DNA of 60,918 nucleotides, taken from IMG/VR virus record IMGVR_UViG_3300008113_010842, one strand, 5' to 3'. Source of the DNA: an uncultured virus (IMG/VR IMGVR_UViG_3300008113_010842). Its lineage: Duplodnaviria; Heunggongvirae; Uroviricota; Caudoviricetes. The translations under genes were made by a program, and so were the position numbers. Below, piece after piece: positions 4,627 to 60,918 of this stretch (positions within the stretch are counted from its first letter, which is position 1; the number at the start of each line of letters is the position of its first letter). The notes beneath the pieces are model-generated. The model worked only from the letters and a program-made list of their open reading frames with translations. It was not told the origin of the DNA and made no database searches.

Positions 4627-5724
4627 TTAAGCTACTGTTAGGAAAATTTTCCTACTTGTTCTATCAACTGATAGAACTTTTACTTTTAAATCTTGGCCCG
4701 GTGTAAACTTCTTTTTCAATTTTTCCATCTCGGAAGTATGAATGAGTCCAACGGTTTCTTCATCAAGATTTACTAATGTTCCGAAAGGTTTTACATCTTT
4801 TACAGAACCTTCAATTACCTGACCATTTTTGATAGTGTCCCACAATGTTTCTCTAAGAATTTGTGTAAGAATTAACTTAGGTAAATATTTATCTCGAATA
4901 ATTTCTTTAATGTAGAAAGTAATCTCGAAGCCTGGCTTAATTTCATTGATTCTTTCTTGCCATTCAGGATTAATGTTAGCTTTATGAATCATGCCTGTAA
5001 GACACTCGTTGAATTCAACAAATACTCCGAATGGAGTTGTGCCTGTCACATGTCCGTCATAGGTCACATTATATTCAAGATTTTTTACTGCTTCAGGAAT
5101 TAACGTTTGTAAATATTTTCTTCTACTTACAATGTAAGTTCCTTCCTGTTCAGCATAAGATTCGATCATTACCTCAAATGTTTGACCAACGATTGAGTTA
5201 GGATCGTGTAACTTATTGATTCCTGCTAATGTGTTAGGCATAAAACCAGGTAGTGTTACACCACCATGCATAAGTTCAACGTCATATCCAGCAGGATTTA
5301 GTGATTTAATGTGAGCTGTAACTGAAGCTCCTTCCTCAAGAGATTTCAGATTTTGATGAGCTCTAGATTCATAAAGTTCAGATATACTTCCTCTAATGTA
5401 AAAGTGGTTATTATCAACATTTACGATGAGCACATCAACAAAGTCACCTTCTGATACGTTTTTTAGATATTTGCTTTCTGAAGTTCTATTTTCAACTCGA
5501 ATATCATCTTTATATCCTGGAACATGAAATACATGTTGATTTGCATTCAGTCCTTGATATTCTGCTGAGATAATGTCACCTTTATTTGGAATTTTCAAAG
5601 CAGTTTTTTCATAAAGTTTTGCCAATTCTTTGTAAGAATCGCTTTTTTGTCTTGATTTAAATGAGCTATCGTCAAATAAGTAGTCAAGTTCTGGGTTTCC
5701 GATTATTGTTTCTGTCATATTCAT
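4627..5724 (-). CDS. rpsA: Ribosomal protein bS1-like multi-S1-domain RNA-binding protein
   Basis: About four S1 repeats (GHVTGTTPFGVFVEF..LTGMIH; GSVKDVKPFGTLVNL...GLIHTSE...KVKVLSVD...KIFL) plus IVSRR linker. Confidence 0.8.
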   Translation of the reverse strand: MNMTETIIGNPELDYLFDDSSFKSRQKSDSYKELAKLYEKTALKIPNKGDIISAEYQGLNANQHVFHVPGYKDDIRVENRTSESKYLKNVSEGDFVDVLIVNVDNNHFYIRGSISELYESRAHQNLKSLEEGASVTAHIKSLNPAGYDVELMHGGVTLPGFMPNTLAGINKLHDPNSIVGQTFEVMIESYAEQEGTYIVSRRKYLQTLIPEAVKNLEYNVTYDGHVTGTTPFGVFVEFNECLTGMIHKANINPEWQERINEIKPGFEITFYIKEIIRDKYLPKLILTQILRETLWDTIKNGQVIEGSVKDVKPFGTLVNLDEETVGLIHTSEMEKLKKKFTPGQDLKVKVLSVDRTSRKIFLTVA

Positions 5725-15211: not shown

Positions 15212-17053
15212 ATGATTAATGAGTTAAAAGAAAAGATTGTAAAAGCTAACGAGGCTTATAGAATTGGTCAACCAATTATGTCTGATAAAGAATATGACCA
15301 ATTGGTTGAAGAATTAGAATTACTTTCTCCTAACGATGATTTACTTACTAAAGTGGGTCATCAAATCTCTGACGAATCTCGTAAAAGTCTTTTACCTATT
15401 GAAATGGCTAGTATGAACAAAATTAAATCTGTTGAAGATATTGATGACTGGTCAAGACTTAAAGAAATTCCTAAATCTACTGAGGTTGTTATCACTCCTA
15501 AATATGACGGTCTTTCTCTTTGTGTGAGTGAAATGACGGGTGAGGCATGGACTCGCGGAGATGGTACTTATGGTCAAAAATCAAATCAACATTATAAATT
15601 GATTGGAAATCATTTGTATTCTAATCTAAAATCTGGATCTCATCTACATAAATTTGATTTTACTTGGGGTGAGGTTATGATGTCTAAAAAAACCTTTTTA
15701 GAAAAATATTCCTCCGAATTTGCTAATCCAAGAAACTTAGTCGCCGGTCTTCTTAACTCAAAAGAACCTTCTGATTTTCTTAAAGATACCTCGTATATTA
15801 AATACGGTGCCAATTCTGTTTATTCTTTTTCAACAAAAGTTGAAATATTAAATGAATTAAATAATAATCAAATTATAAAAGTTCCATTTCACGTTTGTAA
15901 AATTTCAGACCTGTCTGAGCAATTACTAATTTCTTTATTCAAAGAGTATTCGGTTGATTACGAAATTGATGGTCTTATTATCGAAGTTAATGACCTAAAA
16001 CTTCAAAATCAATTAGGACGTGAGACTTCTTCTAATAATCCTTGTTACGCAAGAGCATTCAAACATCCTTCTTTTGAGCAATCCGCTGAAACTGAAATTA
16101 TCGGTATTTCTTGGAATATTTCAAAACAAGGTTATCTTAAACCTACACTTCATATCAATCCTGTTAAATTGGATGGAGTCACTGTATCCAATGTTACTGG
16201 TAACAATGCTCGTTTTGTAAAAGATATGGGTATCGGTGTTGGTGCAAAAGTTGTGGTAAAACGAAGTGGAATGGTCATTCCTATTATCGCTGATGTTATC
16301 GAGATGGTTGAATTCCAAATGCCTGATGTCCAAAACATTGATTGGAATGAAAATGGGGTCGAGTTAATGACCTTAACCGAAACTGATGAACAAAAATTAA
16401 AAAAGAACATTTCTTTCTTTGAAATCTTAGAATCTGATAATGTTTCTGAAGGTGTTATTACTCAATTGTGGGATGCTGGATATAAAACCATTAAAGATAT
16501 TCTTTCACTTACAACTTCTGACTTAGAGAAAATTGACCGATTTGGTAAAAGAAAAGCAAAAATTGTCTATGACTCTATTCAAAAGTCGGTTACTAATGTA
16601 AGTTTGTCTAAACTACAACATGCTACCGGTATCTTTAAAGGTTTAGGTAGTAAGAAATTATTGTTGTTAGAAGATTTTGTCACTAAACCAAGTGTTGAAC
16701 AGGTTATGGCAATCGAAGGATTTGCTGAGATTTCTGCTAAGTCTTATGTTGATAGTTACTATGAATTCTTTAACTTTGTAAAAGACTTACCAATTACAAT
16801 TGCTGAAAAAGTAGAAGTTGTTAAAACTGGAAATGACTTAGATGGAAAACAATTTGTTTTCACGGGTGTAAGACGAAAAGATTTAGAAGATGTAATTGAA
16901 TCTCGTGGTGGTAAAATTGGAGGATCTGTTTCTAAAAACACAACTCACCTTATTATGAAAGTTACCGGTTCTGGTTCTTCTAAAGAGAAGAAGGCTTTAG
17001 AGTTAGGTGTTGAAATTATGACGGTTGAACAATTAGAAGATTTACTTAAATGA
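15212..17053 (+). CDS. ligA: NAD-dependent DNA ligase
   Basis: KYDG adenylation motif, TRGDG, NPRN, EIDG, OB fold, HhH repeats, C-terminal BRCT (VFTG...GG...SVSKNT). Confidence 0.95.
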   Translation: MINELKEKIVKANEAYRIGQPIMSDKEYDQLVEELELLSPNDDLLTKVGHQISDESRKSLLPIEMASMNKIKSVEDIDDWSRLKEIPKSTEVVITPKYDGLSLCVSEMTGEAWTRGDGTYGQKSNQHYKLIGNHLYSNLKSGSHLHKFDFTWGEVMMSKKTFLEKYSSEFANPRNLVAGLLNSKEPSDFLKDTSYIKYGANSVYSFSTKVEILNELNNNQIIKVPFHVCKISDLSEQLLISLFKEYSVDYEIDGLIIEVNDLKLQNQLGRETSSNNPCYARAFKHPSFEQSAETEIIGISWNISKQGYLKPTLHINPVKLDGVTVSNVTGNNARFVKDMGIGVGAKVVVKRSGMVIPIIADVIEMVEFQMPDVQNIDWNENGVELMTLTETDEQKLKKNISFFEILESDNVSEGVITQLWDAGYKTIKDILSLTTSDLEKIDRFGKRKAKIVYDSIQKSVTNVSLSKLQHATGIFKGLGSKKLLLLEDFVTKPSVEQVMAIEGFAEISAKSYVDSYYEFFNFVKDLPITIAEKVEVVKTGNDLDGKQFVFTGVRRKDLEDVIESRGGKIGGSVSKNTTHLIMKVTGSGSSKEKKALELGVEIMTVEQLEDLLK

Positions 17054-21442: not shown

Positions 21443-21877
21443 ATGAGTATAGTAACAAATAGAAAGGCCCTTTACGAATATCACGTTTTAGAAGAATTTG
21501 AAGCCGGAATTGTGCTATTGGGTTCCGAAGTAAAGTCAATTAGAATGGGTAATGTCACCTTAACTGATTCTTTTATTTACTTGAAATCTGGTGAAGTTTG
21601 GATTAAGAATTTTAAAGTAAGTAGATATAAACAAACACATCTTTCTGAAAAGCATGATGAAGGTAGAGAAAAGAAATTACTACTTACAAAAATTCAAATT
21701 GTTAAAATATCTCGAATGATGGAAGACAAAGGAACAACTTGTGTTCCACTTTCAGTATTTTCTAAGAACAATAAACTTAAAGTTAAAATCGGAGTTGTAA
21801 AAGGTAAAAAACTTTACGATAAAAGACAATCTATTAAAGAAAGAGACATAAAAAGAGAATTACAAAGAGGGTTGTAG
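21443..21877 (+). CDS. smpB: SsrA-binding protein SmpB
   Basis: NRKA..EY...EEFEAGIVLLGSEVKSIR, REKKLLL, KGKKLYDKR. Confidence 0.95.
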   Translation: MSIVTNRKALYEYHVLEEFEAGIVLLGSEVKSIRMGNVTLTDSFIYLKSGEVWIKNFKVSRYKQTHLSEKHDEGREKKLLLTKIQIVKISRMMEDKGTTCVPLSVFSKNNKLKVKIGVVKGKKLYDKRQSIKERDIKRELQRGL

Positions 21878-26515: not shown

Positions 26516-26944
26516 ATGATAAAAGAACAAATTAACAAAGACTACCTGACAGCATTCAAAGCAAAGAATACTGTTGCTAAAAACTTACTTTCTGTTGTGA
26601 AAGGAGAAATTCAAACTATTGAAAAAAATACAGGAGTTGAAAACCTCTCTGATGAAGAAGTTATAAAAATTTTAACAAAGACATCAAAGTCTTTAAAAGA
26701 AACAATTAAATCTCTATCACCGATTGATGGTAAAGGTGAAGATATAGTTCAAGCTTGTTCAGAGTTAGCAATAATCGAATGTTATTTGCCAAAACAAATG
26801 AGTAAAGAAGAAATTACTCAAAAAGTAACAGAAATTGTGAATTCCGGAGTAACTAATATTGGAGCAATAATGAAAGAATTTGCTCAATTACCAGCTGATA
26901 AAAAAATAGTTTCTGAGGTAGTAAAACAAATTGTAAATAGTTAA
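26516..26944 (+). CDS. GatB/YqeY domain protein
   Basis: I..D...AFKAK....LL..VKGEI...LSDEEVIKIL...E..IIE.YLPKQMS.EEI...IGAIMK. Confidence 0.85.
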   Translation: MIKEQINKDYLTAFKAKNTVAKNLLSVVKGEIQTIEKNTGVENLSDEEVIKILTKTSKSLKETIKSLSPIDGKGEDIVQACSELAIIECYLPKQMSKEEITQKVTEIVNSGVTNIGAIMKEFAQLPADKKIVSEVVKQIVNS

Positions 26945-30230: not shown

Positions 30231-30235
30231 AAATT

Positions 30236-30306
30236 ACGTCATACAGACAAGGTGTCGGTCAGGCCTCCAAAACCTCGACGGGTGGGTTCAATTCCTACAT
30301 GGCGTG
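30236..30306 (+). tRNA. tRNA-Trp(CCA), atypical D and anticodon arms
   Basis: Acceptor ACGTCAT/ATGGCGT; loop CTCCAAA; G73. Confidence 0.7.
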
Positions 30307-30314
30307 CTAATAAT

Positions 30315-30442
30315 GGGGATGTAGCTCAGTGGTAGAGAAAACTATCTCTTTTGAAATTTTACCTCGTAAGAGTGTTGATTAAAAGAGTTACTTCGTATAT
30401 TTTGAAATTATAAGGTCGTTGGTTCGAATCCAACCATCCCCA
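30315..30442 (+). tRNA. tRNA-like RNA with ~56-nt insertion (apparent anticodon TGA)
   Basis: Perfect acceptor GGGGATG/CATCCCC, D arm and T arm GTTGG-TTCGAAT-CCAAC; hairpin insert between D and anticodon arms. Confidence 0.6.
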
Positions 30443-30450
30443 CAAAAAAT

Positions 30451-40341: not shown

Positions 40342-40410
40342 ATGAATACAATTTCAACATATTATTATAAGGAGAGCAAAGTCTCTGTCAGACGAGTAAG
40401 TATGTCGTAA
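40342..40410 (+). CDS. Attenuator leader peptide 2, MNTISTYYYKESKVSVRRVSMS
   Basis: TAT-TAT-TAT-AAG-GAG patch matches the Tyr/Glu array; TGTCAGAC complements the terminator arm. Confidence 0.8.
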   Translation: MNTISTYYYKESKVSVRRVSMS

Positions 40411-40467: not shown

Positions 40468-40470
40468 ATT

Positions 40471-40538
40471 GGGTTGAGTTATGGTGACGGCCGGATCTGT
40501 AAAATCCTAGCAGTTGAGTTCGAGTCTCAGGCAACCCA
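40471..40538 (+). tRNA. Atypical short tRNA-Tyr(GTA)-like
   Basis: Acceptor GGGTTG/CAACCC, GGAT-CTGTAAA-ATCC, T arm; reduced D arm, no long variable arm. Confidence 0.6.
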
Positions 40539-40543
40539 CAAAT

Positions 40544-40847: not shown

Positions 40848-40923
40848 ACTACTTATGGTGTAAATTGGATTGCACGCGGGTCATTCGGCCCGAGGGTTGT
40901 AGGTTCGAGTCCTATGGGTAGTT
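40848..40923 (+). tRNA. tRNA-like RNA of undetermined identity (6-nt anticodon loop CATTCG)
   Basis: Acceptor ACTACTT/GGGTAGT, D arm, CGGGT-CATTCG-GCCCG, T arm GTAGG-TTCGAGT-CCTAT. Confidence 0.6.
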
Positions 40924-40930
40924 CAAATAT

Positions 40931-41040: not shown

Positions 41041-42078
41041 ATGGAGAATGAAGTTGTAATAATAACATCACATGCTAATACAGATTTTAAGTTAGACATT
41101 TTAAATGAATGTATCCAATATATTAAGTCATTTGGGTATCAAATCATTTTATCATCACATATTTCTGTTCCGGATTCTATACTGGATGATGTAGATTTTT
41201 TTGTCTATGATAAAGAAAATAGAATTATTAATTATTGGGAATATCAAGAAATTCCATCAGGCTATTATAAATACATAAATTTTGATGAATATCAGCATAC
41301 TATATCATCTGAGTTTGACCATGGTTATTCTGTATTGAGACTTATAAGAAATGGACTGAGCTTAGCGAGTATCAATGGATTTACAAAATCACATATTGTA
41401 GATTACGATTATATAATAAAAGATTCAAATTTTTTTAGAGAAAACACAAAATATTTAGGTAATCTTTATGATATCATAGGTTATCGATGTCATGATTATT
41501 ACTTTACTACAGGTATTTTTTCAGTTGTTTGTGATAAAATACTACCAGTATTACAAAGTATAAATTCAGTTGAGGCTTATAGCCAAATTCATTTAGAAAC
41601 AATAGATGATAATAAACTGACAAATAGTGGTGTTTTAGAAAACATATTTTTTTATTTAATTAAAAAAAATAATCTGAGTTTTTTTAATATCGAAGAAAAA
41701 GATTTAGACTTAGAATTGAATGAATTTGATAAAATAAATGTTTTTAATAATTTTTATTTGATTCAAGGAACTTCTATTGAGATTTTCAAATCAACCGATG
41801 GCTTTTTTGACTACCTAACTTTGCTTAATTATGGAACAATCTTAGAATATATAGAGATTCATTATAAAGAAAATTGTTCTATAAAAATAAATTACAATAA
41901 TATCTATGAAAAATCACAATCCGAAAATTCACATATTTCTATTTTAAAATTACCAGATTGGTTAAAAGATATTGAATTTACAATTGAGGCCATAGGTTAT
42001 GGGAAAAAGACTATAAGAAAAAACGAGAATAAAGCACAATGTCAAATAAAAAATCAAAATATTATTTTTGAAATTTAA
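41041..42078 (+). CDS. Hypothetical protein, possibly glycosyltransferase-related
   Basis: 345 aa; IILSSH...DFFVYDKEN...HGYSV...DYD pattern. Confidence 0.7.
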   Translation: MENEVVIITSHANTDFKLDILNECIQYIKSFGYQIILSSHISVPDSILDDVDFFVYDKENRIINYWEYQEIPSGYYKYINFDEYQHTISSEFDHGYSVLRLIRNGLSLASINGFTKSHIVDYDYIIKDSNFFRENTKYLGNLYDIIGYRCHDYYFTTGIFSVVCDKILPVLQSINSVEAYSQIHLETIDDNKLTNSGVLENIFFYLIKKNNLSFFNIEEKDLDLELNEFDKINVFNNFYLIQGTSIEIFKSTDGFFDYLTLLNYGTILEYIEIHYKENCSIKINYNNIYEKSQSENSHISILKLPDWLKDIEFTIEAIGYGKKTIRKNENKAQCQIKNQNIIFEI

Positions 42079-42145: not shown

Positions 42146-42229
42146 ATGAAAAATTTAACTAACATATCACAAGCAGTTATAGCGACAGGCGCGGGGCGTT
42201 TGGTCGAGAGACTGAGTTATGTTATGTAA
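42146..42229 (+). CDS. Attenuator leader peptide 3, MKNLTNISQAVIATGAGRLVERLSYVM
   Basis: GCA-GTT-ATA-GCG-ACA-GGC-GCG-GGG patch matches the Ile(TAT)/Gly/Ala array; GAGACTGAGTTA complements the terminator arm. Confidence 0.8.
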   Translation: MKNLTNISQAVIATGAGRLVERLSYVM

Positions 42230-42438: not shown

Positions 42439-42442
42439 CTAC

Positions 42443-42518
42443 GGGCTAGCATGTTCCAAGGCTTCGGCGACTTACCCTTGCAAGGTAGGTGTGGTGGGTT
42501 CGATTCCCATCTGGTCCA
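42443..42518 (+). tRNA. tRNA-Ala(TGC)
   Basis: TTACC-CTTGCAA-GGTAG; G3:U70 pair. Confidence 0.8.
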
Positions 42519-42528
42519 CAAAAAATAA

Positions 42529-46799: not shown

Positions 46800-46913
46800 A
46801 TGAGAACAAATACGACAAATATGATGAACCTGACACTCAATGTGGTGAATATTACGTTATGTAATATTAGACCTTCTGAGGGTTCCTTCCTATTTAGAAA
46901 ATTTGTCTCGTGA
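46800..46913 (+). CDS. Attenuator leader peptide 4, MRTNTTNMMNLTLNVVNITLCNIRPSEGSFLFRKFVS
   Basis: Codons 2-24 encode only R/T/N/M/L/V/I/C, the amino acids of array 4; TCTGAGGGTTC is the exact complement of the terminator arm. Confidence 0.88.
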   Translation: MRTNTTNMMNLTLNVVNITLCNIRPSEGSFLFRKFVS

Positions 46914-47069: not shown

Positions 47070-47158
47070 GGGCTTGTAGCTGATTTGGTTTTAGCTGGTG
47101 ACTGTTAATCACTGTATGAAAAATTGAAATAAAGTAGGTTCGAATCCTGCCTGGCCCG
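47070..47158 (+). tRNA. tRNA-Asn(GTT) with ~20-nt variable region
   Basis: GGTGA-CTGTTAA-TCACT; G73. Confidence 0.75.
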
Positions 47159-47169
47159 CAAAAATAAAT

Positions 47170-51234: not shown

Positions 51235-52458
51235 ATGAATATTAAAGAAACATTCTTACAATTAACAAGCAAAACTTATCCACACGGAACAGAAGAACAA
51301 CTCTTTCCAATTCTTTACAATATTGTAGATAATCTTCAAAAAGATGAATTTGGTAATCTATTTATAAAAATTGGTGATAGTGATGTTATGTTTACCTCTC
51401 ACTTAGATACTGCAACTTCTGCTAATACTCCGGTTAACCATGTTTTTGATGGTAAAATTATAAAAACCGATGGTAAATCAATTTTAGGAGCTGATGATAA
51501 AGCTGGTGTGACTATTATGCTTTATATGATTAAAAATCAAATTCCAGGTCTTTATTACTTCTTTTTAGGTGAAGAAGTTGGATGTATTGGTTCTAAAAAA
51601 GTTGCGAATGTTCAAAAGGAAAATAAAATCGAAGGTATAAATAAAGTCATTTCTTTTGACCGAAGAGGAACTAATTCAGTAATTACTTTTCAAAGTGGTA
51701 AAAGATGTTGTTCAGATAACTTTGGTAAAAGTTTGTCTGCTCAACTTAATCAAGCTGAGTCAAGTTTTATTTATCAAAATGATCCTACTGGAATTTTAAC
51801 AGACTCTGTTCAATTTATAAGTATTTATCCAGAGTGTACAAACATTTCGGTTGGTTATCAATCAGAACACACGTTTTCTGAAACACAAAATATTGAACAC
51901 TTAGAAAAGTTAGCAGAAGCTTGTTTAAAAGTAGATTGGAAGTCTTTACCTGTTGAGAGAGATCCTTCTAAAGTTGAGTATAAATCTTATTATGGGTATC
52001 CTGGTTGGGATGATTGGGATGATGATTACTCTTATGGTTCTTATGGATACGGTTCGAGTCGTTGGTCTGGTTGGAGAAATAATAAGACTTTTGAAAAGCC
52101 TAAACCTAAAACAGAAAATGTTTGGTTTCATGACCGTGAATTCAACTATGTTTCTAAGGTAGAAGTAGAACAATATTCTAATAAAGTAATTTCTGTTGAT
52201 TTATGTAAAGAAAGAATTCTTAAAGAGAAACTTATAATTGATACTTTGTTGAAATCATTAGATTTAGATTTTGATTCTTCTTCATGGGATGGAATGAAGT
52301 ATGTAATAAATTTTTCAGACAACACAACAAATAATTGTGATAGAAATGAATTAGTAACATACCTACCTGAGTTGGACTACAGAACAATAGAAGAATTAGG
52401 AACTCCTGATAATTTTTTAGACGCATCTTTAGACATGTGTGATAGTTTTTATGATTAG
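51235..52458 (+). CDS. M28/M20-family zinc peptidase (start re-assigned to MNIKET)
   Basis: SHLDT, LGADDKAG, GEEVGCIGS, SFDRRG, NISVGY..EHT..E. Confidence 0.85.
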   Translation: MNIKETFLQLTSKTYPHGTEEQLFPILYNIVDNLQKDEFGNLFIKIGDSDVMFTSHLDTATSANTPVNHVFDGKIIKTDGKSILGADDKAGVTIMLYMIKNQIPGLYYFFLGEEVGCIGSKKVANVQKENKIEGINKVISFDRRGTNSVITFQSGKRCCSDNFGKSLSAQLNQAESSFIYQNDPTGILTDSVQFISIYPECTNISVGYQSEHTFSETQNIEHLEKLAEACLKVDWKSLPVERDPSKVEYKSYYGYPGWDDWDDDYSYGSYGYGSSRWSGWRNNKTFEKPKPKTENVWFHDREFNYVSKVEVEQYSNKVISVDLCKERILKEKLIIDTLLKSLDLDFDSSSWDGMKYVINFSDNTTNNCDRNELVTYLPELDYRTIEELGTPDNFLDASLDMCDSFYD

Positions 52459-54978: not shown

Positions 54979-55074
54979 ATGAACAACGTAATTGTAAATA
55001 TCGCAGTAGTTAACCCACAACCGCAGGATCAGGATCGTGTGAGAGTGGCTAACTATGTATTTACAATAAGTTAA
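54979..55074 (+). CDS. Attenuator leader peptide 5, MNNVIVNIAVVNPQPQDQDRVRVANYVFTIS
   Basis: CCA-CAA-CCG-CAG-GAT-CAG-GAT patch matches the Gln/Asp/Pro array; TGGCTAACT pairs with the terminator arm. Confidence 0.85.
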   Translation: MNNVIVNIAVVNPQPQDQDRVRVANYVFTIS

Positions 55075-55097: not shown

Positions 55098-55132
55098 AAA
55101 ACCCGGTTAGTCAAAATCTAATCGGGTTTTTT
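55098..55132 (+). terminator. Attenuator terminator 5
   Basis: AAAACCCGGTTAG-TCAAAAT-CTAATCGGGTTTT plus T-tract. Confidence 0.88.
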
Positions 55133-55142
55133 GTTATTATAT

Positions 55143-55215
55143 TGTCGGGTCGTCTAGTTTGGCAGGACGCAAGATTTTGGCTCTTGAAACACAGGTTCGA
55201 TGCCTGTCTCGACAT
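55143..55215 (+). tRNA. tRNA-Gln(TTG)
   Basis: CAAGA-TTTTGGC-TCTTG; U1:A72. Confidence 0.88.
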
Positions 55216-55222
55216 CAAATAC

Positions 55223-55295
55223 GGATGTGAGGTCAAACGGTTAAGATGTCTGCCTGTCACGCAGTTCGGAGCGGGTTCAACTCCCGTCACGTCCG
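55223..55295 (+). tRNA. tRNA-Asp(GTC)
   Basis: CTGC-CTGTCAC-GCAG; G73. Confidence 0.88.
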
Positions 55296-55304
55296 CTAAA
55301 ATTT

Positions 55305-55387
55305 CGGGATGTAGCCTAGAGGTTACGCAAGTTAGAGGCACTTGGTTTGGGACCAAGACGACGCAGGTTCGATTCCTGTCATCCCGA
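55305..55387 (+). tRNA. tRNA-Pro(TGG) with enlarged D loop
   Basis: CTTGG-TTTGGGA-CCAAG; C1:G72. Confidence 0.85.
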
Positions 55388-55401
55388 CAAAAATAAACGA
55401 T

Positions 55402-55926
55402 ATGATAGACGGAACATTATACATTGACAATTTTATAGATAACGATAGTTTTCTATTTGATACACTAAGAGATAATTCTGATTGGGATAGAAGAATGGCT
55501 TCTAGATTAACAACATCATTTGGTGTTTCTTATAACTATTCTGATATATCTTATCCAGATGTTATCATACCAAATTATTTAGATGATTTGATAGTTAGAA
55601 TAAATGATGTTGTTGGTTTCACACCAAATAACTGCTTAGTGAATTACTATTTAGATGGTAGATCTAAGATGGGTTATCACTCAGATAGAACTGATATACT
55701 TTTACCAGGAACTGGAGTTGTTATTATATCTTTAGGTTCAACTAGAACATTGAGATTTAGAAATATAAATGATAGAAGTATAGTTGATTTTAGTTTAAGA
55801 AGTGGTTCACTTTTTTATATGACATCTGATGTTCAGGATTTATGGGTTCATTCTATTCCTGTTTCTGATGTTGATGGTAGTAGAATGAGTTTAACTTTCA
55901 GAAATCTCAATCCATCTACCATCTGA
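55402..55926 (+). CDS. AlkB-family 2OG-Fe(II) dioxygenase (start re-assigned to MIDGTL)
   Basis: NNCLVNYY.DG...MGYHSD, ISLGSTR.L.FR, L.SGSLFYM, WVHSIP, RMSLTFR. Confidence 0.92.
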   Translation: MIDGTLYIDNFIDNDSFLFDTLRDNSDWDRRMASRLTTSFGVSYNYSDISYPDVIIPNYLDDLIVRINDVVGFTPNNCLVNYYLDGRSKMGYHSDRTDILLPGTGVVIISLGSTRTLRFRNINDRSIVDFSLRSGSLFYMTSDVQDLWVHSIPVSDVDGSRMSLTFRNLNPSTI

Positions 55927-56283
55927 TAGGAATTGAAATTTACCAACGTAGATGTATCTATTTCTCCATTCTTCTGGTGATATCATTGAAAGAAATTCTT
56001 CATTTTCTTTTTGATAAAGATAGTAAGAGTGACCAGGAATTGGTTCAAAGTTATGTTTAGCTAAATACAATCTTTCATTTATAGAAATTTCTTGCATCAA
56101 TTTTTGATACTCTTTTTGAATTTCTTCAAATTTAGATGTGTAGTGATGTTTGAGTTTATTAGTTTTCTCTATTTTAAATAGAGTTATGTCATCAGGTGAG
56201 AATTTCTGTGAACCTAATTCAGTCGGATAAGATTTTAATCTCCTATCAGTAACGTAAGAATCGGGTAATTTATTTTCTTTCAT
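55891..56283 (-). CDS. DUF2452-like protein
   Basis: YPTELGSQKF.P...A..NFEP..G..YYLY...FLSMISPEEW...G.F....DGRW. Confidence 0.6.
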   Translation of the reverse strand: MKENKLPDSYVTDRRLKSYPTELGSQKFSPDDITLFKIEKTNKLKHHYTSKFEEIQKEYQKLMQEISINERLYLAKHNFEPIPGHSYYLYQKENEEFLSMISPEEWRNRYIYVGKFQFLSDGRWIEISES

Positions 56284-56995: not shown

Positions 56996-57415
56996 ATGAC
57001 AAAACTTTTTTTAGATGATATCAGAATTCCAAAAGATGCAATTGGATTGATACCATCAACATTAAATCAATTTTATTGGGATGATAATTGGATTATAGTA
57101 AGAAACTACTATGAGTTCTGTAACTATATACAAAAATTTGGACTACCTGATTTTATATCTTTCGATCATGATTTAGCGGATGACCACTATAACGATTTAT
57201 TTTCAGATGAAAACTGGTCAAAAGACAATGCTGATATTGTTTTAAAATATGATGAATATAAAGAAAAAACAGGATATGAGTGTGCAAAATGGTTGGTAGA
57301 TTGGTGTTTAGAGACAAAATCTAAGTTACCTGATTATATTGTTCATTCTGCTAATCCAGTTGGTAAAAGAAATATCGAGTCTTATTTTAATAATGCAAAA
57401 AAACATTTATTGTAA
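56996..57415 (+). CDS. Cyclic-phosphate-processing receiver-like domain protein
   Basis: LFLDDIRIP, ISFDHDL, TGYECAKWL, VHSANPVG..NI. Confidence 0.75.
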   Translation: MTKLFLDDIRIPKDAIGLIPSTLNQFYWDDNWIIVRNYYEFCNYIQKFGLPDFISFDHDLADDHYNDLFSDENWSKDNADIVLKYDEYKEKTGYECAKWLVDWCLETKSKLPDYIVHSANPVGKRNIESYFNNAKKHLL

Positions 57416-59179: not shown

Positions 59180-60918
59180 TTATTTTCCAATAAATTCATT
59201 TGTATCTATTTCTTCTAATCTAGTTTGAAATCTTTCTAATCTCTTTCTAAGTTGTTGTCTGTAGTTATCTTTATCTTTATCACTGAATTTGATTTGTAAT
59301 TGTCCTTTTTCTTCAATTATATCTTCAATTCTCCTAATTTCTGAGTTAAGTTTAGATTTAATCATATCTCTTATAGGTAATATACTATCTTCATAGGCAA
59401 ATTTATCAGTAAATCTTTCTTTATCATTATCCACTTTAACTCCTAAAAGAAGGGCATCTACTTCTGATAAATAATCAATATCTTCCAATTCTTCTGGTTT
59501 TTCACCTTCAATCTTATAAGTATTTAATTGGAATTGAATTGGAATAGGTTCATCTTTATAATCTAAATCAAATAGTTCTCTTAGAGCCCAGTCATAATCA
59601 ACCCAGTTAGACCACTCTTGTGAAAGAACTTTATACCAAGTTTGACCTCTATATTCACTCGCTCTAATTATATCATCATCATCTTTATGATACCAGTTAG
59701 AATCGGCTCCTAATGCTTCACCATCAGTATCTATACGCTTAATAACTTCAACAGCATTTGCATCATAAAGATAATATCCATATGCTTCTGAATATACCGC
59801 ATCATCNNNNNNNNNNNNNNGACCAAACACCAGATGCTATCTGGTCATATCCACCCTGTGTATCATTTAATATATATTGACCTTCATAGCTTTCATCTTC
59901 ATCATCATCGTTGTAAAGAATTCCTTCATCTGAATCATATCTTCTAAAAGTATCCATATAAGGGTATCTTCTATAATTTTTAGCTTCTACTTTTACTGAT
60001 AAATTTGCATTTTTTTCTTCACCTTCTATTGTTACATTACTAAACGAATGATGATTATTAGAAGATTTGTAAATCCAACCTTTTTCTTTAGCATAGTTTC
60101 TAAATTTTTCAACATCAGAATCTTTGATTGTATATTGTCTATCCATAAACCAGCTATCTTGTTTTGGATCTTTTCCGTAAATTTTAATTGAATTTAGTTT
60201 CCATACAAGAGCTCTTCCTATGAGTTCATCATCTTCTACAAGAATAAGCATTTTACAAACATCTGGATTCTCTGTATAAATTGTGAATAATCCTGATTTT
60301 TTTGCCATACAAGAGTTTCCTAATGTTCCAGACATTTCTTTATAATTGTCTGCATTATACCAATGGTTAATATCCTCTCCAGAAACTTCTTCAAATCTTT
60401 CACCTTGTTTTGATAAGGCAGCTTTAAATTTATTTGTAAATTCTTCAATATCTTTTGATGTGTATTTTCCAGGTAAAAGTGCATTTACTAATCTACCTAA
60501 TTTGACATCGTTTCTTGATTTCGTTCCTAATTCATATTGATTAAACATATGATTGACATCTGATTGAGAGGTTTCACCTTTTTCAATCTTATCAATCATT
60601 ATGTCTAAAATTTGTTTAGTTCTTTCATCACCTAAATTATGGTCTTTAGCCCAATCTTTGAAAGATTTTTCAACATTATTTTTTAAGTTTCTTAAAGTAG
60701 AACCTGAAATATACCCTTCTCTATCGGAAAGAGATATAAAAGTCATATCATTTTTAACATCTTTATATTCTAAATCAATAAGGTCTTTTGCTATCTGAGA
60801 TTGTGTTGATAATTTATAAAGAGCATCTTTAAAATCTTTTACATAATAAACATAAGTTTCATTGATTAAACTTTCAAAAAGTAAATCTTCATTAATAAAG
60901 GAATTATATCTTAAAATC
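59180..60918 (-). CDS. Large hypothetical protein spanning an N-gap; starts at or just beyond the window edge
   Basis: Frame open from the window end (ILRYNSFINEDLLFES...); NSCM and GRALVW...FMDRQY...YPYMDTF motifs; probably continues across Ns at 59807-59820. Confidence 0.65.

What the first reader, a model, noticed from the sequence alone, without database searches (positions are those of the whole stretch)
55402..55926. AlkB-family gene behind array 5 has no Glu codons, one Lys (AAG) and one Gln (CAG)
Seen: the 174-aa protein has 0 Glu, 1 Lys and 1 Gln, with about 22 Asp and many Arg instead, whereas most neighbouring proteins are rich in Lys and Glu. It has no AAA, GAA, GAG or CAA codon. 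It begins 14 nt after tRNA-Pro, so it is probably under attenuator 5. Established: tRNA-Lys(UUU), Glu(UUC) and Gln(UUG) are the set carrying xm5s2U34 and include known anticodon-nuclease targets; AlkB enzymes remove alkyl marks from DNA or RNA. Inference: the gene is built to be translated when those three tRNAs are disabled, and may repair or de-modify tRNA as a counter-defence.
Basis: partly seen in the sequence, partly recalled or inferred. Interest (0 to 1): 0.85.

Follow-up and report, generated by a model that had tools for sequence, protein, structure and literature searches.

The report
Phage AlkB gene purged of Glu/Gln/Lys
A phage repair-type enzyme gene that sits directly behind a cluster of phage tRNA genes has had nearly every glutamate, glutamine and lysine codon removed by evolution, most likely so that it can still be translated when the three tRNAs that read those codons are out of action.

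Summary
ORF 55402-55926 (174 aa) is a confident AlkB-family Fe(II)/2-oxoglutarate dioxygenase, closest to ALKBH2/3. It has 0 Glu, 1 Lys (AAG), 1 Gln (CAG), 22 Asp and 14 Arg (all AGA). It has the lowest K+E+Q of the 66 ATG-ORFs in the window (1.1% against a mean of 19%).

The comparative evidence decides it. All 50 full-length homologs at 69% identity or more share the purge. E=0 in 46 of 50, Q=1 in 48 of 50, K is 0 or 1 in 37 of 50. All 59 more distant homologs carry 11.6-22.9% K+E+Q. All 80 copies in species genomes, mostly Bacteroidota, carry 8.1% or more. Five other annotated AlkB copies (four phages, one Acinetobacter record with bacterial neighbours) are also normal.

Near-invariant Lys and Gln positions of the family were replaced. 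The one Gln kept is invariant and is CAG in all 11 distinct gene sequences, in genomes where CAA outnumbers CAG 369:55.

In 10 of 10 relatives with upstream DNA the gene follows a Gln/Asp/Pro tRNA array. In 6 of 6 relatives checked, a conserved leader peptide (NPQPQDQD) and terminator precede that array.

Selected avoidance of NAR codons is well supported, with Glu and Gln avoided more strictly than Lys. A tRNA-repair or counter-defence role for the enzyme is untested.

The parts
54979..55074 (+). Leader ORF MNNVIVNIAVVNPQPQDQDRVRVANYVFTIS*. It carries a run of Pro/Gln/Asp codons that match the three tRNAs downstream.
   Evidence: The same peptide core NPQPQDQD...NYVFT(I/M)S is conserved upstream of the array in L001, L002, L004, L007, L010 and L012 (6 of 6 examined with this array type).
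55098..55136 (+). Intrinsic-terminator-like hairpin plus T-run, lying between the leader ORF and the tRNA array.
   Evidence: 13-pair stem, 5 G-C pairs, then a T-run. It is conserved in 6 loci, and one stem pair changes on both sides (A-U to G-C).
55143..55216 (+). tRNA-Gln(UUG)
   Evidence: ARAGORN. The anticodon loop reads TTTTGGC.
55223..55296 (+). tRNA-Asp(GUC)
   Evidence: ARAGORN.
55305..55388 (+). tRNA-Pro(UGG) with a 10-nt insertion in the D-arm region. ARAGORN mislabels it Leu-gag.
   Evidence: alignment with the tRNA-Pro(tgg) genes of L002, L005, L007, L008 and L010.
55402..55926 (+). AlkB-family Fe(II)/2OG dioxygenase, 174 aa, with 0 Glu, 1 Lys and 1 Gln.
55666..55668 (+). The only Lys codon (AAG, K89).
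   Evidence: and read. This column is K in 55 of 60 normal homologs. In the depleted clade it is K in 23 of 50 and R in 26 of 50.
55834..55836 (+). The only Gln codon (CAG, Q145).
   Evidence: This column is Q in 60 of 60 normal and 50 of 50 depleted homologs. The codon is CAG in 11 of 11 distinct depleted genes. It is the only one of 37 invariant two-fold-degenerate columns fixed on a G/C-ending codon.
55678..55686 (+). H93-S-D95 of the iron-binding HxD motif.
   Evidence: Invariant in the 65-sequence alignment. It aligns with the HSD of ALKBH3.
55849..55902 (+). H150 (third iron ligand) through R161 and R167 (the RxSxTFR 2OG-binding motif).
   Evidence: Invariant columns. They align with the ALKBH3 stretch QHRVP...RVNLTFR.

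Best explanation
The gene encodes a functional ALKBH2/3-like AlkB demethylase. A lineage of AT-rich, tRNA-rich phages took it from a Bacteroidota-type cellular AlkB and placed it as the last cistron of a tRNA-Gln/Asp/Pro operon.

In that lineage, selection removed the codons of the three split NAR boxes and still keeps them out. Glu (GAR) and Gln (CAR) are excluded almost absolutely. Lys (AAR) is excluded less strictly. The replacements are mostly Asp, Arg, Asn and small or hydrophobic residues.

These are exactly the codons read by the tRNAs whose wobble base is a 2-thiolated xm5s2U34. The most likely purpose is that the enzyme can be translated while tRNA-Glu(UUC), tRNA-Gln(UUG) and tRNA-Lys(UUU) are cleaved, hypomodified, uncharged or otherwise unavailable in the infected cell. 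Such a state would also stall ribosomes on the Gln codons of the upstream leader, which may switch the operon on.

Shown: the purge, its clade-wide conservation, the codon-level signal, the tRNA-operon position and the intact catalytic core. Inferred: that translation is the selective reason, that the operon is attenuated, and what the enzyme demethylates (RNA or tRNA, or single-stranded DNA).
For: 1. The depletion is specific to one clade. 50 of 50 full-length homologs at 69% identity or more have K+E+Q of 6.4% or less. E=0 in 46 of 50, Q=1 in 48 of 50 and K is 0 or 1 in 37 of 50. 59 of 59 other full-length homologs have 11.6-22.9%. All 147 further homologous loci are normal. These are 80 from species genomes (minimum 8.1%) and 67 from metagenomes (minimum 7.1%, in 66-68% GC DNA); the median is 16.1%. 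Five other annotated AlkB copies have 12.5-19.7%.

2. The depleted set is one side of a well-supported branch (SH-aLRT 98). No copy above 58% identity occurs among the 80 best of 126 matches in 185,579 species genomes.

3. Family-conserved residues were replaced. K36 (58 of 60 K) became L/M. Q48 (59 of 60) became G/D. Q96 (58 of 60) became R. Q149 (52 of 60) became V/M. Only the invariant Q145 and, in about half the clade, K89 survive.

4. Exclusion is ongoing. Among variable cells of the depleted clade, E is 0.6% and Q is 0.1%, against 8.6% and 5.7% in normal homologs. In Asp-majority columns E makes up 6 of 130 minority cells, against 14 of 58 in normal homologs. Codons differ at up to 29% of amino-acid-identical sites, so there was ample mutational input.

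5. There is a codon-level signal. Q145 is CAG in 13 of 13 loci, which are 11 of 11 distinct genes. The window's long ORFs use CAA 369 times and CAG 55 times. It is the only one of 37 invariant two-fold columns fixed on a G/C-ending codon.

6. The avoided set is specific. AGA (14), TTA (10) and GGA (3) are used freely. Their tRNAs carry xm5U34 without the 2-thio group (this is recalled). Gene GC (0.30) equals locus GC.

7. The context is conserved. A Gln/Asp/Pro tRNA array lies directly upstream in 10 of 10 depleted loci with at least 100 nt of upstream DNA. Of 147 normal loci, none lies behind an array, and 2 have a single tRNA within 1.5 kb, downstream on the opposite strand. A leader peptide and terminator are conserved. 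L003 has a Gln-Gln array behind a leader that contains QFQQQQ.

8. The enzyme is intact. H93, D95, H150, R161 and R167 are invariant. Model pLDDT is 93.8 and TM is 0.86 to ALKBH2.

9. It is the only real K/E/Q-free gene in the window and in the 11 related loci scanned. The other low scorers lie antisense within longer genes or tRNA arrays.
Against: - All depleted genes form one clade, so the purge and the tRNA-operon position are each a single evolutionary event. Their association is n=1.
- The gene is rich in Asp (22) and has 6 Pro. These codons are also in the leader, so it is not built to be independent of every tRNA that its own attenuator would sense.
- Phage tRNA-Gln is made from the same transcript. 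That weakens a simple 'no tRNA-Gln available' reading, unless phage tRNAs are also hit.
- Lys reappears as a variant at nearly the normal rate (5.0% against 6.4% of minority cells). The kept Lys is AAA in 5 of 8 loci that have one. The 'xm5s2U set' is therefore not avoided uniformly.
- The host is unknown, and so is its tRNA set, including whether a tRNA-Gln(CUG) exists to read CAG.
- No anticodon nuclease, tRNA-modification defect or aaRS-inhibiting toxin has been tied to these phages.
- No expression or translation data exist.
Confidence: 0.6

Rival explanations
1. Selection acts on the protein, not on decoding. Lys, Glu and Gln side chains are avoided because something in the infected cell modifies, cross-links or cleaves at them. 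Candidates include Lys acylation or tagging, Glu/Gln ADP-ribosylation or deamidation, transglutaminase-type Gln-Lys links, and residue-specific proteases.
For: The replacements partly keep charge (Asp rises from 6.3% to 11.6% and Arg from 4.7% to 7.6%), as expected if the side chains are the problem. The loosest exclusion is for Lys, whose nearest substitute Arg is chemically very close.
Against: The kept Gln is CAG in 11 of 11 distinct genes against a 13% genomic CAG share, which is a codon-level signal. The three residues have no shared chemistry, but they share one tRNA class. Neighbouring phage proteins in the same cytoplasm are rich in K/E/Q (mean 19%). No such enzyme is known to me. My searches returned lysine-less proteins only in ubiquitin contexts (search listing only).
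Confidence: 0.12
2. Amino-acid economy (low cognate bias). The enzyme is made when Glu, Gln and Lys pools, or their charging, are exhausted. Nitrogen or 2-oxoglutarate limitation would do this, as would a toxin that blocks GluRS or LysRS. Under this reading the tRNAs themselves are intact.
For: Glu and Gln are the most strictly excluded. They are metabolically one step apart and derive from 2-oxoglutarate, the enzyme's own co-substrate. Where Gln-tRNA is made through Glu-tRNAGln, a block of GluRS would hit both. The window encodes a YqeY/GatB-like protein (26516-26941). Depletion of a scarce amino acid from proteins needed during its scarcity is a described phenomenon (abstract starts of PMC4209129 and PMC3937554 in the listing).
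Against: Arg and Pro derive from Glu and are not depleted; Arg is enriched. Replacing Lys by Arg raises nitrogen cost. The CAG preference is not explained by amino-acid supply. Only one gene of the 66 ATG-ORFs of 80 aa or more shows the bias.
Confidence: 0.13
3. The avoidance tunes speed or fidelity rather than rescue. NAR codons are slow or frameshift-prone in this host. They are avoided in a gene that must be made quickly from a short-lived mRNA released by tRNA processing.
For: The gene starts 14 nt after a tRNA and ends inside a convergent gene. Its mRNA is therefore probably a processing product.
Against: The other phage genes use AAA (1011 times) and GAA (818 times) heavily. These include the gene 28 nt behind tRNA array 2 (41041-42078: 24 K, 26 E, 11 Q). 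Replacing near-invariant family residues is a high price for speed.
Confidence: 0.08
4. The composition is a neutral by-product or an artefact, such as a wrong frame, an antisense ORF, compositional drift or recent transfer from an odd genome.
For: None found.
Against: The frame carries a complete AlkB domain with the catalytic residues. AT-rich drift would raise Lys (AAA), not remove it. Gene GC equals locus GC. The state is conserved across 50 sequences down to 69% identity.
Confidence: 0.02

Closest known systems
Human ALKBH3 and ALKBH2; E. coli AlkB (Fe(II)/2OG demethylases of 1-methyladenine and 3-methylcytosine in DNA and RNA)
   Same: It has the same Pfam family, the same HxD...H iron triad and the same RxxxxxR 2OG motif. 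It shares the 'TQxxW.H' stretch that holds the retained Gln. The profile E-value is 2e-17 to ALKBH3 and 5e-17 to ALKBH2. Foldseek gives TM 0.86 to ALKBH2 and 0.75-0.77 to E. coli AlkB.
   Different: It is a minimal 174-aa form with no extra domains. It is phage-borne and sits in a tRNA operon. It has no Glu and only one Gln and one Lys. Its substrate is unknown.
Bacteroidota 170-aa AlkB proteins (for example those named from Fulvivirga ligni, Aureibacter tunicatorum, Tenacibaculum aiptasiae and Chitinophaga sedimenti)
   Same: They are the closest cellular relatives (55-59% identity over 97% of the length). They have the same length and the same invariant columns.
   Different: They carry 12-19% K+E+Q. 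They do not lie next to tRNA genes. They have no conserved neighbourhood in the 12 genomes I looked at.
AlkB-like genes of jumbo phages (CcrPW gp237, CcrColossus, Xoo-sp13, SCTP-2, LR756511). Iyer et al. 2021 (PMC7824862; I read passages) suggest these reset methyl marks.
   Same: They are phage-encoded AlkB-family proteins in very large, tRNA-bearing genomes.
   Different: They are only 27-31% identical. Their K/E/Q content is normal (12.5-17.9% in the four phage genes). Their annotated neighbours are protein-coding genes, not tRNA genes.
Proteins depleted of an amino acid that is scarce when they are needed. Examples are 'low cognate bias' in biosynthetic enzymes and low-Trp proteins of Chlamydia (abstract starts of PMC4209129 and PMC3937554). 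The sulfur-free phycobiliproteins of Mazel and Marliere 1989 are recalled and were not seen here.
   Same: The logic is the same. A protein that must be made during a specific shortage has lost the residues that need the scarce component.
   Different: Here three amino acids are removed almost completely, from a single viral gene. The set is defined by a tRNA wobble-modification class rather than by a metabolic pathway. There is a codon-level (CAA against CAG) signal.
Phage answers to tRNA-targeting defences: phage tRNA arrays that replace cleaved host tRNAs (PMC10264068, PMC11555353 and the AriB/PARIS preprint 10.1101/2025.02.04.636281, abstract starts). T4 Pnk/Rnl1 repair of PrrC-cut tRNA-Lys is recalled.
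   Same: The phage carries its own tRNA-Lys (two copies), tRNA-Glu (two copies) and tRNA-Gln. The gene is part of a tRNA-supply operon.
   Different: No described counter-measure works by purging the codons of the targeted tRNAs from a gene. No RNA ligase or polynucleotide kinase was found among the 49 window ORFs scanned. Only a cREC_REC domain protein was found, at 56996-57412.

Membership tests
AlkB family (Pfam PF13532, 2OG-FeII_Oxy_2) | Sequence match above the curated threshold | tested here: met
   81.5 bits against a cut-off of 31.2, E 1.2e-22, residues 41-167. PHROG 21963 'alkylated DNA repair', E 3e-24.
AlkB family (Pfam PF13532, 2OG-FeII_Oxy_2) | Fe(II) facial triad HxD...H | tested here: met
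   H93, D95 and H150 are invariant in 65 aligned homologs. They align with the ALKBH3 residues.
AlkB family (Pfam PF13532, 2OG-FeII_Oxy_2) | 2-oxoglutarate-binding arginines (RxxxxxR near the C-terminus) | tested here: met
   R161 and R167 (RMSLTFR) are invariant.
AlkB family (Pfam PF13532, 2OG-FeII_Oxy_2) | Double-stranded beta-helix fold with the AlkB-type N-terminal extension | tested here: met
   The AlphaFold2 model has pLDDT 93.8 and pTM 0.89. The best PDB matches are ALKBH2 (TMq 0.86, E 6e-15), ALKBH3 (0.83-0.84) and E. coli AlkB (0.75-0.77).
AlkB family (Pfam PF13532, 2OG-FeII_Oxy_2) | Oxidative demethylation of N-methylated bases in DNA or RNA | not testable with these tools
   This needs an enzyme assay.
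   There is only context: the gene is the last cistron of a tRNA operon in 10 of 10 relatives.
   The host is unknown. No genome is held for the window.
Shortage-adapted ('adaptively purged') proteins | Depletion relative to orthologs that are not expressed under the shortage | tested here: met
   K+E+Q is 6.4% or less in 50 of 50 clade members. It is 7.1% or more in all 206 other homologs counted: 59 proteins and 147 loci.
Shortage-adapted ('adaptively purged') proteins | Expression under the matching shortage | tested here: inconclusive
   A conserved leader with Gln codons and a terminator lie upstream. I did not resolve an antiterminator. RNA-library contigs of relatives cover parts of the gene but do not show transcription.

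The most novel reading that the evidence does not exclude
This is a bootstrap repair enzyme. The AlkB acts on the wobble base or anticodon loop of the xm5s2U34 tRNAs (Glu, Gln, Lys). It might oxidatively remove an alkyl group placed on the nucleophilic 2-thio sulfur or on the (c)mnm5 side chain, either by a host defence or by chemical stress. Alternatively it might strip the determinant that an anticodon nuclease recognises. Because it restores the very tRNAs that are disabled, it had to be rewritten to be translatable without them. It is wired behind a leader peptide that senses Gln-codon stalling, so it is made exactly when needed.
Probability: 0.15. Interest if true: 0.95.

Novelty: new variant of a known kind. 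Interest (0 to 1): 0.82.

Why it matters
If the reading is right, this is a natural, clade-wide example of a gene recoded to be independent of one class of tRNAs. Evolution has in effect written which tRNAs fail during infection of these (probably Bacteroidota) hosts.

It gives a simple sequence signature for finding counter-defence or emergency genes in uncultured phages: ORFs free of the codons of a tRNA class, placed in tRNA operons.

It points to the 2-thiolated wobble-uridine tRNAs as a contested target outside the E. coli/T4 model.

It nominates a phage AlkB as a candidate RNA or tRNA demethylase.

It also supplies a ready-made pair for experiments. The purged enzyme and its 57%-identical normal orthologs can be compared for how far a protein tolerates loss of three of the twenty amino acids.

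Tried and rejected
- Two scans of viral contigs, one with the protein and one with the clade alignment, found no relative.
- No whole genome is held for the window. The records behind L001 and L002 are not held. I could therefore not scan the rest of the phage for other purged genes.
- Gene neighbourhoods of 12 cellular Bacteroidota homologs showed nothing conserved and no RNA- or DNA-repair partner (26 flanking ORFs scanned against Pfam).
- I tried to learn whether candidate host genomes have a tRNA-Gln(CUG). An Rfam tRNA search of five genomes gave coordinates only. A BLAST with the phage tRNA-Gln gave only short chance-level matches (best E 0.12). I dropped the question.
- The profile search of 1.84 billion representatives returned no representative scoring like a clade member; the best was 218.7 bits. 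At 50% clustering the clade may be merged with normal homologs. It did reveal further Glu-free, N-rich relatives: P0125 (K5 E0 Q3) and P0148 (K6 E0 Q3).
- Sequencing runs: the five holders have word shares of 0.08 or less. When laid, contigs from two metatranscriptomic libraries of two studies cover parts of relatives' genes. These are X3 at 55471-55706 and X5 at 55567-55905. One 91-nt X5 contig bridges the tRNA-Pro 3' half and the AlkB start (55343-55433). Contigs cannot show transcription or a single transcript, and DNA carry-over is possible.
- Other candidate K/E/Q-poor ORFs lie antisense inside longer genes and were rejected (window 16150-16410 and 51946-52131; L012 12957-13187).
- The consensus fold of the leader region gave the terminator and a small hairpin, but no convincing antiterminator.
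- Literature: six searches found no report of a phage or other protein purged of Lys, Glu and Gln. They also found no report of leader-peptide attenuators in front of phage tRNA arrays. Subscription journals are not covered.
Full report
**The observation**

The ORF at 55402-55926 translates to 174 residues with no Glu, one Lys (AAG, 55666-55668) and one Gln (CAG, 55834-55836). It has 22 Asp and 14 Arg, and all 14 Arg are AGA. There is no AAA, GAA, GAG or CAA codon.

Among the 66 ATG-ORFs of at least 80 aa in the window it has the lowest K+E+Q, 1.1% against a mean of 19.0% (sd 6.1%). The next lowest ORFs of 60 aa or more lie antisense within longer ORFs. The binomial chance of two or fewer such residues is about 1e-13 at the window's frequency.

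The window is about 28% G+C and carries 27 tRNA genes. Mutation pressure should therefore raise Lys (AAA), not remove it. The gene's own G+C (0.30) equals that of its surroundings.

**What the protein is**

It matches Pfam PF13532 well above threshold and PHROG 21963, 'alkylated DNA repair'. A profile of the family finds ALKBH3 and ALKBH2 as the nearest solved proteins (E 2e-17 and 5e-17).

An AlphaFold2 model built on 65 homologs is confident (pLDDT 93.8). It superposes on ALKBH2 (TM 0.86), ALKBH3 (0.83-0.84) and E. coli AlkB (0.75-0.77).

The iron ligands H93, D95 and H150 and the 2-oxoglutarate arginines R161 and R167 are invariant. It is a bona fide, apparently functional AlkB-family dioxygenase.

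**The comparative test**

A search of 5.8 billion proteins gave a graded series of homologs. The result is a step, not a gradient.

| Set | n | K+E+Q |
|---|---|---|
| Full-length homologs at 69% identity or more, plus the divergent P0088 | 50 | 6.4% or less |
| Other full-length homologs (62% identity or less) | 59 | 11.6-22.9% |
| P0118, the odd one out | 1 | K5, E12, Q1 |

- Within the depleted set, E=0 in 46 of 50, Q=1 in 48 of 50, and K is 0 or 1 in 37 of 50.
- The normal set includes proteins named from Fulvivirga, Aureibacter, Tenacibaculum and Chitinophaga genomes.
- I restricted these counts to the 110 of 121 sequences that are 160-185 aa long.
- Independent DNA-level sets agree. 147 further homologous loci all have at least 7.1% (median 16.1%). 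These are 80 from 185,579 species genomes and 67 from metagenomes. The lowest values occur in 64-70% G+C genomes.
- No species genome holds a copy more than 58% identical to the phage gene (best 80 of 126 matches listed).
- Five other annotated AlkB copies are normal, at 12.5-19.7%. Four are from phages. The fifth, filed as an Acinetobacter phage record, has bacterial neighbours (uvrC, ada, pgsA).

It is not met.

**Evidence for selection**

- **One clade.** In a maximum-likelihood tree the depleted sequences form one side of a branch with SH-aLRT 98. This was a quick search with the LG+G4 model, and compositional attraction cannot be excluded. At its unresolved base sit P0118 (K5 E12 Q1) and P0088 (K8 E0 Q1) on long branches, with P0050 (K6 E0 Q1) and P0040/P0043 on ordinary ones. 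The profile search added P0125 and P0148 (both E0, Q3, K5-6). These hint that Gln and Glu went first and Lys last, but the order is not resolved.
- **Conserved positions were overwritten.** There are 29 columns where at least half of the normal homologs carry K, E or Q. In those columns K36 (K in 58 of 60) became L/M. Q48 (59 of 60) became G/D. Q96 (58 of 60) became R. Q149 (52 of 60) became V/M. Only Q145 (60 of 60 and 50 of 50) is kept. K89 (55 of 60) is kept in 23 of 50. The two NAR codons of the window's gene are exactly these two positions.
- **Exclusion continues within the clade.** Among cells that differ from the column majority, E is 0.6% and Q is 0.1% in the clade. In normal homologs they are 8.6% and 5.7%. 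Lys is 5.0% against 6.4%, so Lys is tolerated as a variant. In Asp-majority columns Glu supplies 6 of 130 minority cells, against 14 of 58 in normal homologs. Codons differ at up to 29% of amino-acid-identical sites between clade members, so mutation has had ample opportunity.

**A codon-level signal**

DNA is available for 13 clade loci, which give 11 distinct gene sequences. In all of them the retained Gln is CAG. The window's long ORFs use CAA 369 times and CAG 55 times.

Of the 37 invariant columns with two-fold degenerate codons, Q145 is the only one fixed on a G/C-ending codon. That argues that the codon or its tRNA matters, not only the side chain.

The signal is a single site in related sequences. 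Lys does not follow it: the kept Lys is AAG in three loci and AAA in five.

Codons whose tRNAs carry xm5U34 without the 2-thio group are used freely (AGA 14, TTA 10, GGA 3). That assignment is recalled. The abstract starts of PMC5400242 and PMC4830565, seen in the listing, state that tRNA-Gln, tRNA-Lys and tRNA-Glu carry xm5s2U34. The avoided set is therefore the NAR split boxes, that is the 2-thiolated wobble-uridine tRNAs. It is not A-rich codons in general and not all modified-U tRNAs.

**Context**

The gene starts 14 nt after a tRNA. Alignment shows this tRNA to be tRNA-Pro(UGG) with a 10-nt D-arm insertion. ARAGORN mislabels it. It is preceded by tRNA-Gln(UUG) and tRNA-Asp(GUC).

In 10 of 10 clade loci with at least 100 nt of upstream DNA, the gene follows a Gln/Asp/Pro tRNA array on the same strand. 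L006, L009 and L041 are cut too close to judge. Among the 147 normal loci none follows an array. Two have a single tRNA within 1.5 kb, downstream on the opposite strand.

Upstream of the array lies a 31-codon ORF with the run N-P-Q-P-Q-D-Q-D, followed by a terminator-like hairpin and a T-run. The peptide and the hairpin are conserved in L001, L002, L004, L007, L010 and L012, and one stem pair changes on both sides. In L003 the array is Gln-Gln and its leader reads MRTIVQFQQQQINRTD.

No terminator-like site lies between the tRNAs and the AlkB start. Co-transcription under a Gln/Asp/Pro-sensing attenuator is a reasonable inference. I did not resolve an antiterminator, and I have no transcript evidence beyond contigs in RNA libraries that cannot show it.

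**Interpretation**

The best-supported reading is as follows. A phage lineage captured a Bacteroidota-type AlkB and put it at the end of a tRNA-supply operon. Under continuing selection the lineage removed the codons that need tRNA-Glu(UUC), tRNA-Gln(UUG) and, less strictly, tRNA-Lys(UUU). The enzyme can then be made when these tRNAs do not work.

The phage also carries two tRNA-Lys(UUU), two tRNA-Glu(UUC) and one tRNA-Gln(UUG). It carries SmpB, a YqeY/GatB-like protein, an S1-domain protein and an L7/L12-like protein. It is thus heavily invested in keeping translation going.

tRNA-targeting defences, and phage tRNAs as the answer to them, are documented. I saw the abstract starts of PMC10264068, PMC11555353, PMC3025547 and 10.1101/2025.02.04.636281 in the listings.

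**What argues against a simple story**

- The gene is very rich in Asp and has Pro. Both codons are in its own leader.
- Phage tRNA-Gln comes from the same transcript.
- Lys is only partly avoided.
- The whole pattern is one evolutionary event.
- The host and its tRNA set are unknown.

Rival readings remain open at lower odds. They are protein-level avoidance of the three side chains, shortage of the amino acids or of charging, and tuning for speed.

**The enzyme's role**

It fits the bootstrap logic: an enzyme that rescues certain tRNAs should not need them. It also fits the operon position. Nothing in the sequence or fold distinguishes the protein from ordinary ALKBH2/3-like demethylases. 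The cellular orthologs have no informative neighbours.

Iyer et al. 2021 (PMC7824862; I read passages) treat jumbo-phage AlkB-like genes as resetting methyl marks and do not mention composition.

**Novelty**

Six literature searches found no description of a protein purged of Lys, Glu and Gln. They found no report of codon-class avoidance as a phage strategy. They found no report of leader-peptide attenuators before phage tRNA arrays.

The nearest concepts are low cognate bias in biosynthetic enzymes and low-Trp proteins of Chlamydia (abstract starts of PMC4209129 and PMC3937554).

The enzyme family is known. The recoding and its wiring into a tRNA operon are new as far as I could search.

Noticed in passing
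window 40342-40410, 42146-42229, 46800-46913, 54979-55074 (each followed by a hairpin and T-run, then a tRNA array): Four of the five tRNA arrays are preceded by a short ORF whose codons match the tRNAs behind it, followed by an intrinsic-terminator-like hairpin. MNTISTYYYKESKVSVRRVSMS* stands before Glu, Glu, an unassigned tRNA and Tyr. ...AVIATGAG... stands before Ile, Gly, Gly and Ala. MRTNTTNMMNLTLNVVNITLCNIR... stands before Arg, Asn, Val, Ile, Cys, Thr, Arg and three Leu. ...NPQPQDQD... stands before Gln, Asp and Pro. This looks like trp/his-type attenuation applied to phage tRNA genes. One literature search found no report of it.
   Followed up: partly
L003 161-211 and 278-428; L004 5562-5712: A relative has a Gln-Gln tRNA pair directly in front of the AlkB gene, behind a leader MRTIVQFQQQQINRTD* and a terminator. 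The leader's codons track the tRNA content of the array.
   Followed up: partly
window 55305-55388, 47070-47159, 40848-40924, 30231-30450, 40470-40543, 42440-42528: Several tRNAs are odd. tRNA-Pro has a 10-nt D-arm insertion. tRNA-Asn is 90 nt long. One 'tRNA-???' has a two-base anticodon call. Some inter-tRNA gaps contain tRNA-like stretches that ARAGORN did not call, one apparently interrupted by an insert.
   Followed up: no
window 21443-21874, 26516-26941, 4630-5724, 521-955: The phage encodes several translation-related proteins. They are SmpB (E 4.5e-51), a YqeY/GatB-like protein (E 2.6e-20), an S1-domain protein and a weak L7/L12 C-terminal match.
   Followed up: no
window 56996-57412 and 55891-56283 (-): A cREC_REC 'cyclic-phosphate processing receiver' domain protein lies two genes downstream of AlkB (E 9e-22). 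Iyer et al. 2021 link this domain to RNA-end repair. A convergent DUF2452 gene overlaps the last 36 nt of the AlkB ORF.
   Followed up: no
window 55143-55216: The phage tRNA-Gln(UUG) has G at position 37 (loop TTTTGGC). From memory, E. coli tRNA-Gln has A there. Together with tRNA-Pro (G36-G37), this would make two of the three array tRNAs possible m1G37 carriers, and m1G is a known AlkB substrate. I did not pursue this.
   Followed up: no
P0122, P0124, P0138, P0157: Some normal-composition relatives are fused to N-terminal extensions of 150-300 residues. P0122, for example, is 341 aa with the AlkB domain at 170-336. These extensions were not examined.
   Followed up: no
window about 59800-59830: There is a run of 14 N in the window. 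It falls inside two overlapping minus-strand ORFs.
   Followed up: no
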